NCBI GenBank assembly: GCA_964106915.2
Contig: OZ066917.1
Direction: 5' to 3' (one strand)
DNA from: Podarcis gaigeae
Lineage: Eukaryota
DNA length: 64,000 nucleotides
Each line of letters opens with the position of its first letter. The stretch's first letter is position 1. Position numbers: made by a program. Positions 27,978 to 29,044 of this stretch are shown one piece after another.

Positions 27978-28029
<52 letters not shown>

Positions 28030-29044
28030 GGTTTTGGTGTCCTCGGGTGTCTTCCCGTGTAAAAGTTGGGGTGTCTAGGCGACGTTTCGACGAGGTCTCA
28101 CTCGTCATCTTCAGGCTGGTGCTTTCGGCTTCTTGTTACTGGAACAGAGCGGGATCTCAATGTTTGAGTTCCTATAAATACTGTAGAGGGGGTGTGGTGT
28201 CTAGCCTCCAATGTTCTGGGCAGAGAGGAAGTTCCCAGGCTAGTGTGCCTTTTCTTCTTTTGTTCCTTAATTACTTGAGAGATACCTTGAGTGATTTCTT
28301 GAGTGATATCCTGAGTACCACTTAGGTGGGTCATTAGGTGTGGATTAGTTGCTAAAGTCTTTGTGTCTTGACCTCTTGAACTTTGTGAAGAGTTTTCCTG
28401 AGAAGATGGCTGTATTGCACTTAGTTGTGCTTTGGCTTGGCTTCGTGTATAGGGGCGAGCTGTGGTTTTGTGGCTTGTGTCAGCCAGATCTGTGTAGGGA
28501 TTGCAGGGGGGTGCAGCATCCGGTGCTGCACCCCCCTGCAATCCCTACACAGATCTGGCTGACACAAGCCACAAAACCACAGCTCGCCCCTATACACGAA
28601 GCCAAGCCAAAGCACAACTAAGTGCAATACAGCCATCTTCTCAGGAAAACTCTTCACAAAGTTCAAGAGGTCAAGACACAAAGACTTTAGCAACTAATCC
28701 ACACCTAATGACCCACCTAAGTGGTACTCAGGATATCACTCAAGAAATCACTCAAGGTATCTCTCAAGTAATTAAGGAACAAAAGAAGAAAAGGCACACT
28801 AGCCTGGGAACTTCCTCTCTGCCCAGAACATTGGAGGCTAGACACCACACCCCCTCTACAGTATTTATAGGAACTCAAACATTGAGATCCCGCTCTGTTC
28901 CAGTAACAAGAAGCCGAAAGCACCAGCCTGAAGATGACGAGTGAGACCTCGTCGAAACGTCGCCTAGACACCCCAACTTTTACACGGGAAGACACCCGAG
29001 GACACCAAAACCTGCATTCCTGTACCCGTGAAAATCTACGAAAG

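What the first reader, a model, noticed from the sequence alone, without database searches (positions are those of the whole stretch)
28025..29017. 993-bp near-perfect DNA palindrome made of Penelope-like sequence
Seen: two 494-bp arms separated by TCCGG (centre 28521). The mirrored ORFs in the track are identical outside the centre, and spot checks found no mismatch, so the event is very recent or homogenised. Established: Penelope-like elements often carry inverted pseudo-LTR segments, and long spacer-poor palindromes form cruciforms and are unstable. Inference: fold-back priming during reverse transcription made a head-to-head copy. Any read-through transcript would form a hairpin of about 490 bp, a possible endo-siRNA or ADAR substrate able to silence the family. 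A fold-back read or assembly artefact must be excluded.
Basis: partly seen in the sequence, partly recalled or inferred. Interest (0 to 1): 0.75.

Follow-up and report, generated by a model that had tools for sequence, protein, structure and literature searches.

The report
Head-to-head Penelope-like retroelement fragment pair
Two identical, mirror-image end pieces of a Penelope-like jumping gene sit back to back inside a TA repeat in what looks like a lizard genome, which is a young but ordinary kind of insertion for this family.

Summary
The palindrome is real: arms 28025-28518 and 28524-29017 are 494 nt, 100% complementary, 5 nt apart. It is Penelope-like (PLE) sequence. The sense frame of each arm is the last about 143 codons of an RT + GIY-YIG ORF. 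It is identical over 140 of 143 residues to P0008 and 70% identical to a Podarcis muralis RT-EN protein, P0009. Each arm carries a minimal hammerhead motif found nowhere else in the window and in 0 of 300 simulated windows. The unit lies in a pure (TA)n microsatellite and has a 30-nt one-sided "tail" (29018-29047). The ends fall 84 and 114 nt into the next ORF, as published for the Anolis element PAc. Inverted 5'-truncated copies, tails and (TA)n targets are textbook PLE features. Simple fold-back of one cDNA fits poorly, because each arm holds element sequence the other lacks. I favour one integration event primed from both target strands. An artefact is unlikely but cannot be excluded without reads. 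The siRNA/ADAR idea is untested, though it has a Drosophila precedent. This is a new member of a known kind, of modest interest.

The parts
27980..28026 (.). Left half of the target microsatellite, (TA)23.5, 100% pure. Its last 2 nt overlap the arm.
   Evidence: Tandem Repeats Finder; sequence.
28025..28523 (-). Left copy: a 5'-truncated 3' end of a Penelope-like element, sense on the - strand. It comprises the 494-nt arm plus the 5 central nt, which read as element sequence in this orientation. It ends about 84 nt into the downstream ORF and has no tail.
   Evidence: tblastn of P0008 residues 226-368 matches the - strand 28529-28101 at 99.3%, against 97.9% for the + strand. Relatives read APPDAAPPC; the - strand reads AAPDAAPPC.
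28519..28523 (.). Centre of the palindrome (TCCGG). It contains the self-complementary CCGG. It is not filler: it is templated element sequence belonging to the left copy.
28524..29047 (+). Right copy: the same 5'-truncated element end, sense on the + strand. It comprises the 494-nt arm (to 29017) plus the 30-nt one-sided tail (29018-29047), and ends 114 nt into the downstream ORF.
   Evidence: The tail is unique in the window at up to 3 mismatches. The position matches the 111-118 nt RT start region of PAc (Frangieh 2024 main text).
28525..28944 (+). Remnant of the element's RT-EN ORF in the right arm: its last 140 codons plus the stop. There are no internal stops or frameshifts against P0008. 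The RT and EN domains themselves are missing through one 5' truncation. The mirror image lies at 28098-28523 on the - strand.
   Evidence: Pfam places RVT_1 and GIY-YIG upstream of the matched part in P0009 and P0008.
28928..28961 (+). Minimal hammerhead-ribozyme-like motif: CUGAAGA core, one unpaired U, 6-bp helix II starting G-C, GAAA, and a palindromic ACGU in place of helix III, then C17. Helix I has only 2 bp by eye.
   Evidence: The descriptor scan gives 2 hits in the window (this one and its mirror) and 0 in 300 simulated windows. The features are as described by Cervera and De la Pena 2014. Rfam found nothing.
28081..28114 (-). Mirror copy of the hammerhead-like motif in the left arm.
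28934..29047 (+). Presumed first 38 codons of the next ORF of a tandem unit. The ATG sits at the start of hammerhead helix II and overlaps the upstream ORF by 11 nt. The mirror image is 28025-28108 on the - strand (28 codons).
   Evidence: The assignment rests on analogy with PAc. No protein homologue was found, so it is inferred.
29048..29087 (.). Right half of the target microsatellite, (AT)20, 100% pure.

Best explanation
The 993-bp palindrome is a young head-to-head pair of 5'-truncated copies of the 3' end of a canonical (RT plus C-terminal GIY-YIG endonuclease) Penelope-like retroelement, most likely of the Penelope/Poseidon type. It is inserted in a (TA)n microsatellite of what is probably a lacertid-lizard genome. 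Each copy holds the last about 140 codons of the element ORF, the hammerhead motif that overlaps the ORF stop, and the start of the next ORF of a tandem transcript. Shown: the identity of the sequence, the anatomy, the target and the perfect identity of the arms. Inferred: both copies were laid down in one integration event in which the element's endonuclease cut both strands of the AT-rich target, and each 3' end primed reverse transcription inside the start of the ORF. One priming was at the proximal start site (left copy, +84, no tail) and one at the distal site (right copy, +114, with the 30-nt tail). The two nascent cDNAs then met at their 3' ends and each was completed on the other, giving arms that differ by 5 nt at the centre. 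The locus has no RT or EN of its own. It is a dead-on-arrival fragment pair with no demonstrated function. Sub-confidences: PLE head-to-head insertion 0.9; one event primed from two strands about 0.5.
For: The arms are exact. The arm sense frame is identical over 140 of 143 residues to the C-terminus of P0008, which carries a GIY-YIG match at residues 82-127 with E 6e-4, below Pfam's cut-off. It is 70% identical to residues 643-733 of P0009, a Podarcis muralis protein with RVT_1 (E 4e-16) and a GIY-YIG match (E 1e-3, also below cut-off). P0009 has 1849 relatives at E<=1e-10 among 8000 candidates scored, sharing one domain architecture, and the named ones include Anolis, Vipera and Petromyzon. 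The hammerhead motif has the unpaired base after position 9, a G10.1-C11.1 pair, a long helix II and a palindromic 15.2-16.2, and none occurs in 300 simulated windows. The ATG sits at the start of helix II and the cut site is 25-27 nt after it, against 26 bp in PAc. The ends fall at +84 and +114, against RT start at 111-118 with the tail lying between two start sites. PAc also has an AT-rich target, and both strands are cleaved and extended in vitro. Craig 2021 describes adjacent inverted 5'-truncated copies, a 30-40 bp tail often at one end only, and (TA)n bias. The central 5 nt match the element only in the left-copy reading, and the tail is only on the right. So each arm has sequence the other lacks. 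The two flanks are not mirrored.
Against: Only one locus could be examined. No eukaryotic DNA collection was available, so the family's other copies, its 5'-end spectrum and the sequence that follows +84 in longer copies were not seen. The tail and the ATG-ORF have no detectable protein homologue: one search gave none, and one search gave a best E of 0.38 among 128 proteins. Their element origin therefore rests on positional analogy with PAc. Two independently primed cDNAs ending within 5 nt of each other is a coincidence that this model does not explain by itself. It needs a defined RNA 5' end, a pause site, or pairing through the self-complementary CCGG, and the observed centre is one base off the ideal CCGG-paired product. 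Rfam reports no hammerhead even at E<=10, helix I is only 2 bp, and my descriptor was written after seeing the motif. The stem-loop around the start sites is not more stable than shuffles (z -0.45).
Confidence: 0.6

Rival explanations
1. Single-cDNA fold-back (snap-back, copy-back). One target-primed cDNA was extended about 0.5 kb. Its 3' end then folded back on itself a few bases behind and the RT copied the nascent cDNA, making the second arm.
For: The spacer is only 5 nt, and the arms are perfect and of equal length, which is what intramolecular copy-back gives naturally. A possible 2-nt pairing (TG with CA) closes a 5-nt loop (by eye). Hairpin self-priming by reverse transcriptases is established knowledge (recalled).
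Against: The orientation of the central 5 nt makes the top strand the continuous one, running from left antisense to right sense. That cDNA starts at +84 without a tail. Yet the copied arm runs on through 30 further nt that end at +114, the published RT start zone, instead of running into (TA)n and the mirrored left flank. The flanks are not mirrored.
Confidence: 0.22
2. Palindrome formation at the DNA level after insertion. A single truncated copy in the fragile (TA)n tract was duplicated in inverted orientation by hairpin-capped break repair or replication template switching, or the arms are kept identical by gene conversion between older copies.
For: (TA)n tracts and short-spacer palindromes are break-prone (established knowledge, recalled). 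Identity of 100% is compatible with homogenisation.
Against: Neither arm can be derived wholly from the other, given the 5 nt at the centre and the 30-nt tail. Both outer ends sit at element-specific termini inside the same microsatellite. The arm's CpG is less depleted than the window's, 0.42 against 0.25, which fits youth rather than an old homogenised pair.
Confidence: 0.08
3. Assembly or read artefact: a fold-back chimeric read, or a mis-traversed repeat graph.
For: PLE inverted and tandem structures are known to trouble assemblies (Craig 2021 passage). The window has a 139-N gap at 12334-12472, so the assembly is not gap-free. No reads were available to me.
Against: A fold-back read mirrors everything up to its end. 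Here 500 nt of each flank share no mirrored match better than 17 nt. Both breakpoints coincide with canonical element ends in one microsatellite. The centre junction and the tail asymmetry make biological sense.
Confidence: 0.06
4. Not a retroelement product at all: a foldback or MITE-type DNA transposon with TA target duplication, or a hairpin-RNA (miRNA-like) gene.
For: It has long inverted arms flanked by TA repeats. Many Rfam miRNA-precursor models align to the centre.
Against: The arms encode the C-terminal tail of an RT-EN ORF in the sense orientation, at 98-99% identity to P0008. All 56 Rfam matches are below their gathering scores and fit any perfect hairpin, and there were 0 matches at gathering level. 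The right end has 30 extra nt that a transposon with terminal inverted repeats would not have.
Confidence: 0.02

Closest known systems
PAc, the Poseidon-type Penelope-like element of Anolis carolinensis (Frangieh et al. 2024, PMC11167929; outline and both parts of the main text read)
   Same: The hammerhead has the ORF start codon at the start of stem II, with C3 and G8 before it and the cut site about 26 nt after it. Here the ATG is at 28934 and C17 is nt 28. Insertion ends lie inside the start of the ORF, and the optional 30-40 bp tail is the stretch between two RT start sites, at 111-118 nt. Here the ends are +84 and +114. The target is AT-rich. Both target strands are cleaved and extended in vitro, which would give inverted pairs.
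   Different: This is a different family and host. The nearest named proteins are from Podarcis muralis, and an Anolis carolinensis relative (P0058) is only 47% identical to P0009. I could not compare sequences with PAc itself, because its consensus is in a supplement that is closed. The text I read does not give the position of PAc's proximal start site. Here the pLTR is almost wholly coding. The AC-rich stem-loop analogue is not statistically supported.
Generic PLE insertion architecture (Craig et al. 2021, PMC8557442, passages read)
   Same: An inverted 5'-truncated copy lies next to another copy and forms inverted repeats. There is a 30-40 bp tail at one end only, (TA)n or other microsatellite insertion bias, and a hammerhead in the pLTR of canonical clades.
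   Different: The usual picture is a full or tandem unit with an inverted truncated copy at its 5' end. Here there is no full unit, only two truncated ends of nearly equal length, which makes an almost perfect palindrome.
Minimal hammerhead ribozymes of metazoan PLEs (Cervera and De la Pena 2014, PMC4209133, parts 1-2 of 4 read)
   Same: [quoted passage not shown] Helix I is short, as in the 2-bp D. virilis variant. That paper also reports dual motifs on opposite strands about 100-700 bp apart; here they are about 0.8 kb apart.
   Different: No Rfam hammerhead model matches it. Self-cleavage is untested. In the palindrome one transcript carries one sense and one antisense motif, so the dimeric active form cannot arise from this locus alone.
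LINE-1 twin priming (5'-inverted insertions; search listing only, otherwise recalled)
   Same: The second target strand also primes reverse transcription, which produces an inverted segment within one insertion.
   Different: Twin priming joins two different, largely non-overlapping parts of one RNA. Here both arms copy the same 0.5 kb, which needs two templates or copying of one cDNA on the other.
Rearranged Penelope copies with long inverted repeats that yield siRNAs in transformed Drosophila melanogaster (Evgen'ev 2013, PMC3681739, passages read)
   Different: That is an insect system with transcribed copies. No expression or small-RNA data exist for this locus, and both copies here point away from the centre.

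Membership tests
Penelope-like elements, canonical EN+ (RT with C-terminal GIY-YIG) | Sequence belongs to an ORF that carries a PLE-type reverse transcriptase followed by a GIY-YIG endonuclease | tested here: met
   The arm frame is identical over 140 of 143 residues to the C-terminus of P0008 and 70% identical to P0009 residues 643-733. P0009 has RVT_1 at 152-330 (E 4e-16) and GIY-YIG at 499-538 (E 1e-3, 19.8 bits, below the 22.6 cut-off). P0008 has GIY-YIG at 82-127 (E 6e-4, also below cut-off). The window itself holds neither domain: 310 of 310 open frames of 60 or more codons lack them, and tblastn finds no further remnant.
Penelope-like elements, canonical EN+ | [quoted passage not shown] | tested here: met
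   It is seen by eye in the relatives P0008 and P0009 (GIY..C..C..YIG followed by H...H). It is not present in the window, which lacks the EN domain.
Penelope-like elements, canonical EN+ | Hammerhead ribozyme motif in the pLTR | tested here: inconclusive
   A structural descriptor hits once per arm and nowhere else in 64 kb on both strands, with 0 hits in 300 Markov-1 simulated windows. It shows the four extra features listed by Cervera 2014. However, the descriptor was written post hoc, Rfam gives no hammerhead at gathering level or at E<=10, and helix I is only 2 bp.
Penelope-like elements, canonical EN+ | [quoted passage not shown] | tested here: met
   There are 30 nt (29018-29047) between the right arm and the (AT)n, and none on the left. 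That these 30 nt are element sequence is inferred from position (+85 to +114) and not shown.
Penelope-like elements, canonical EN+ | Inverted and/or tandem 5'-truncated copies (pLTR structures) | tested here: met
   The two copies are inverted and head to head. No tandem (direct) copy is present in the window.
Penelope-like elements, canonical EN+ | AT-rich or microsatellite target | tested here: met
   (TA)23.5 lies on the left and (AT)20 on the right, both 100% pure. A target-site duplication cannot be read within a microsatellite.
Penelope/Poseidon clade, as opposed to Neptune/Nematis | No extra CX2-5CxxC linker upstream of GIY-YIG; phylogenetic placement of the RT | tested here: inconclusive
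   No CxxC motif is visible upstream of the GIY-YIG core in P0008 or P0009. Named relatives include Anolis carolinensis and Petromyzon marinus proteins. No phylogeny was made.
LINE-1-type twin-priming insertion | Two segments come from different parts of one RNA and are joined at an inversion junction | tested here: not met
   Both arms cover the same 494 nt.
Foldback or MITE DNA transposon | Non-coding terminal inverted repeats bounded symmetrically by a target duplication | tested here: not met
   The arms are retroelement coding sequence, and the right end carries 30 extra nt.
miRNA or hairpin RNA gene families (Rfam) | Match at or above a family's gathering score | tested here: not met
   There are 0 matches at gathering level in the window. 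All 56 matches at E<=10 are below gathering, for example MIR1144 at 74 bits against 90.

The most novel reading that the evidence does not exclude
The locus may be a natural footprint of two-ended target-primed reverse transcription by a dimeric PLE ribonucleoprotein. One target strand would have been primed at the proximal RT start site and the other at the distal one, which gives the one-sided tail. Both cDNAs would have run to the same point, either a defined 5' end of a short (about 0.5 kb) sub-genomic or retrozyme-like template RNA, or a site where their self-complementary CCGG 3' ends paired. That would make such near-perfect palindromes a regular, predictable product of PLE integration, and an in-genome confirmation of in vitro findings so far made only for the Anolis element.
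Probability: 0.35. Interest if true: 0.5.

Novelty: new member of a known kind. Interest (0 to 1): 0.3.

Why it matters
The finding shows that a striking 1-kb perfect palindrome in a vertebrate genome has an ordinary origin. It is a dead-on-arrival inverted pair of Penelope-like element ends in a TA microsatellite. Its modest value is as a clean, undecayed example. Its two outer ends fall where the two reverse-transcription start sites and the tail were mapped in vitro for the Anolis element. Its centre shows which strand was continuous. A genome-wide census of such pairs could therefore test how PLEs make their inverted structures. Practically, loci like this are hazards for assembly. They are also candidate sources of hairpin RNA, as already reported for Penelope in Drosophila.

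Tried and rejected
Rfam, gathering run on the whole window: 0 matches. Permissive Rfam run on 27600-29500: 56 matches, none a hammerhead, the best being generic miRNA-hairpin models below their cut-offs.

I replaced it with 310 stop-free open frames of 60 or more codons. No RT, EN or any other domain reached a curated cut-off. Four weak chance-level hits turned up and none.

Search with the presumed N-terminus of the downstream ORF: 38 aa was too short. The 41-aa version found nothing among longer proteins. It did not match P0009. It gave no significant hit among 128 stored proteins.

P0002 (a bacterial repeat protein, E 1e-6) was rejected as a low-complexity chance match.

The stem-loop at 28978-29034, a possible counterpart of the PAc AC-rich stem-loop, is not more stable than shuffles.

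The bacterial promoter/terminator scan and ARAGORN are uninformative for this eukaryotic locus.

I considered the idea that two cDNAs paired through the CCGG at the centre. The real centre is one base off the perfect product, so I keep it only as a possibility.

The 2026 retrozyme preprint mentions neither Podarcis, lizards nor palindromes.

The collections genome contigs, phages, plasmids and E. coli genomes were not searched, because they hold no animal DNA.

Full report
OBSERVATION. The arms are 28025-28518 and 28524-29017, 494 nt each, 100% complementary, and separated by TCCGG. A script confirms that they are exact reverse complements. The mirrored ORFs differ only at the centre. Blastn of one arm against the whole window returns only the arm and its mirror image. 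Folded as RNA, the 993 nt form a single hairpin of -1036 kcal/mol, against -304 on average for 20 shuffles, none of which folds as well. All other repeat pairs in the window are 69-95% identical.

First, the unit sits inside a pure dinucleotide microsatellite, (TA)23.5 at 27980-28026 and (AT)20 at 29048-29087. Second, 30 unique nt (29018-29047) lie between the right arm and the (AT)n, with nothing comparable on the left.

WHAT THE ARMS ARE. The sense frame of the right arm (window 28498-28941, + strand; mirrored on the - strand) was scored against 1.84 billion representative proteins. This gave two hits.
- P0001 is a Podarcis muralis gene model named Translin associated factor X. Its last 105 residues are 91% identical to the arm frame.
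- P0002 is a bacterial repeat protein, which I reject as a low-complexity match.

A word-indexed search among longer proteins added two more.
- P0008 is 368 aa, from an unnamed 1436-bp contig. It is identical in 140 of 143 aligned residues and ends at the same C-terminus.
- P0009 is 735 aa, NCBI 'uncharacterized protein LOC144326219 [Podarcis muralis]'. It is 70% identical over residues 643-733.

Pfam finds RVT_1 at 152-330 of P0009 (E 4e-16). It also finds GIY-YIG matches at 499-538 of P0009 (E 1e-3) and 82-127 of P0008 (E 6e-4), both just under Pfam's curated cut-off. [quoted passage not shown] Craig et al. 2021 give the first as characteristic of canonical EN+ PLEs and the second as distinguishing Neptune/Nematis (passages). 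P0009 has 1849 relatives at E<=1e-10 among 8000 candidates scored. The 120 listed nearly all share one precomputed domain set, and the named ones include Vipera latastei, Anolis carolinensis, Anolis sagrei, Petromyzon marinus and many insects.

So each arm is the last about 140 codons of a Penelope-like RT-EN ORF. It is not a non-coding pseudo-LTR. The retained part has no stop or frameshift against P0008. Each copy has one break, a 5' truncation that removes all of RT and EN. No other PLE protein remnant exists in the window: tblastn gives only HSPs with E>0.1. None of the 310 open frames of 60 or more codons reaches a curated Pfam cut-off. Because the only close named relatives are from Podarcis muralis, the host is probably a lacertid lizard. 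That is an inference.

HAMMERHEAD AND ORF JUNCTION. Near the outer end of each arm lies a motif with these parts:
- the core CUGAAGA;
- one unpaired U;
- a 6-bp helix II that opens with G-C;
- GAAA;
- a palindromic ACGU in place of helix III;
- then C.

It lies at 28928-28961 on the + strand and 28114-28081 on the - strand. A descriptor with these elements hits only these two places in 64 kb on both strands, and gives no hit in 300 first-order Markov simulations of the window. The unpaired base between positions 9 and 10.1, the G10.1-C11.1 pair, the long helix II and the palindromic 15.2-16.2 are the features that Cervera and De la Pena 2014 report for minimal hammerheads of metazoan PLEs. They also describe a 2-bp helix I in D. 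virilis and dual motifs on opposite strands (text parts 1-2).

Against this, I wrote the descriptor after seeing the motif. Helix I has only 2 bp. Rfam reports no hammerhead at gathering level or at E<=10. Its 56 permissive matches are mostly miRNA-precursor models that fit any hairpin, and all are below their cut-offs.

The upstream ORF stops in the loop of helix II. An ATG at 28934 sits at the start of helix II, so the two frames overlap by 11 nt.

COMPARISON WITH THE ANOLIS ELEMENT. I read the outline and both parts of the main text of Frangieh et al. 2024. For PAc they report the following:
- Reverse transcription starts internally, at two adjacent sites in a stem-loop 111-118 nt into the ORF.
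- The optional 30-40 bp genomic tail is the stretch between the two start sites.
- The endonuclease prefers AT-rich DNA.
- Unlike R2 or L1, both target strands are cleaved and extended.

Here C17 is nt 28, the arm ends at nt 84 and the tail ends at nt 114 of the frame opened by ATG 28934. The anatomy therefore coincides closely with PAc.

What I could not show is that the 38 codons after this ATG, tail included, are element sequence. The 41-aa query found nothing. It does not match P0009, whose N-terminus is a gene-model artefact or too diverged. It has no significant match among the 128 proteins held (best E 0.38). The local stem-loop (28978-29034) is no more stable than shuffles (z -0.45).

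HOW THE PALINDROME AROSE. The centre is informative. Both relatives read ..APPDAAPPCNPY... The - strand (left copy) reads ..AAPDAAPPC.., while the + strand reads ..AASGAAPPC... Accordingly P0008 matches the - strand at 99.3% and the + strand at 97.9%. The 5 central nt are thus element sequence that belongs to the left copy. The left copy is 28025-28523 and the right copy is 28524-29047.

It follows that the top strand runs without a break from the left antisense copy into the right sense copy. It also follows that each copy carries element sequence the other lacks: 5 nt at the inner end of the left copy, and the 30-nt tail at the outer end of the right copy. The second point is inferred.

A single cDNA that folds back and copies itself cannot produce a second arm that runs 30 nt past its own starting point. 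It should instead run into (TA)n and the mirrored left flank. The flanks are not mirrored. The same logic argues against an inverted duplication at the DNA level and against a fold-back read artefact.

I therefore favour one integration event in which both strands of the cut (TA)n primed reverse transcription, at the two start sites. The two cDNAs were then joined at their 3' ends, each completed on the other.

The weak point is that two independent cDNAs ended within 5 nt of each other. A defined 5' end of the template RNA, a pause site, or pairing through the self-complementary CCGG at the centre could explain it. The real centre, however, is one base off the ideal CCGG-paired product (by eye). 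The tiny spacer is the best argument for the fold-back rival, to which I give about 0.2.

AGE AND ARTEFACT. Zero differences in 494 sites puts a 95% upper bound of 0.006 per site on arm divergence. With assumed neutral rates of 0.5-2 x 10^-9 per site per year (my assumption, from no call) this means under about 1.5-6 million years, unless gene conversion keeps the arms identical. Arm CpG o/e is 0.42 against 0.25 for the window, and the arm frame matches P0008 perfectly outside the centre. Both fit a young, recently active family.

An assembly artefact cannot be excluded without reads. The window has a 139-N gap at 12334-12472, which I left untouched. Still, the breakpoints at canonical element ends in one microsatellite, the unmirrored flanks and the meaningful asymmetries make an artefact unlikely.

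FUNCTION. The locus lacks RT and EN and is a dead-on-arrival fragment pair. Both copies point outward from the centre, so any element-internal promoter would transcribe away from it. A 494-bp RNA hairpin needs read-through from outside, and no gene was recognised around it.

Rearranged Penelope copies with long inverted repeats in transformed D. melanogaster give siRNAs that map precisely to the inverted regions (Evgen'ev 2013, passages). Nothing here tests it, and ADAR editing is likewise untested.

COMPARISON AND NOVELTY. Inverted 5'-truncated copies, one-sided tails, microsatellite targets and hammerheads are all described for PLEs. L1 twin priming is the nearest non-PLE analogue, but it joins different parts of one RNA (listing; otherwise recalled). 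This is a new member of a known kind.

Its interest lies in being an undecayed example whose ends and centre can be read against the in vitro model. I searched the paper library four times:
- (Penelope-like, hammerhead, microsatellite, pLTR);
- (Penelope, Podarcis, transposable elements);
- (Penelope, twin priming, inverted, template switching);
- (Penelope, siRNA, inverted repeat, virilis).

I found no description of this lacertid family or of near-perfect PLE palindromes as such. That is a limited search, not proof of absence.

LIMITS. Paper supplements were closed. The PAc consensus and start-site figures (Frangieh 2024) and the hammerhead alignments (Cervera 2014) might confirm or weaken the positional analogy. 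No sequence here was taken for human.

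Noticed in passing
window 12334-12472: There is a run of 139 N, an assembly gap or masked stretch. I left it untouched. Repeats of a dispersed family lie directly to its right, at 12512-12962.
   Followed up: no
window 2969-3325, 39048-39404, 45450-45805, 60653-61009; inverted copies 5964-6165 and 35335-35638; fragment 31414-31510: This is a dispersed SINE-like repeat of about 300-360 nt with a tRNA-related end. 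The copies are 71-95% identical. They are ordinary interspersed repeats and far older than the palindrome.
   Followed up: partly
window 27763-27823: A tRNA-like segment lies just left of the insertion. It scores 19.9 bits on the Rfam tRNA model, below the gathering score of 29, with E 0.59. ARAGORN finds no tRNA anywhere in the window. It is probably the head of a decayed SINE.
   Followed up: partly
window 18232-18453, 37695-37965, 46587-46736: This is a second dispersed repeat family, 69-86% identical, with inverted partners next to the N run.
   Followed up: no
window 28270-28316 and mirror 28726-28772: Inside each arm there is an imperfect 12-nt (24-nt) tandem repeat of 2-4 copies. It encodes the repetitive TQDITQEITQGISQ stretch of the ORF tail. 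The relative P0009 diverges from the arm frame from about this point on.
   Followed up: partly
protein P0001 (UniRef A0A670HLY4, Podarcis muralis): This is a Translin-associated factor X gene model with a Translin domain at residues 52-165. Its last about 105 residues are 91-93% identical to the PLE arm frame. It is either exonisation of a PLE fragment or an annotation artefact.
   Followed up: partly
window 28934-28944 (mirror 28098-28108): The stop codon of the element's RT-EN ORF lies in the loop of hammerhead helix II. The presumed next ORF starts 11 nt before that stop ends. In this family the pLTR is therefore almost entirely coding.
   Followed up: partly
window 26888-27412: This is the longest open frame near the palindrome, 175 codons on the + strand. 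It begins at a 25-bp exact tandem duplication (26900-26948) and has no Pfam match.
   Followed up: no
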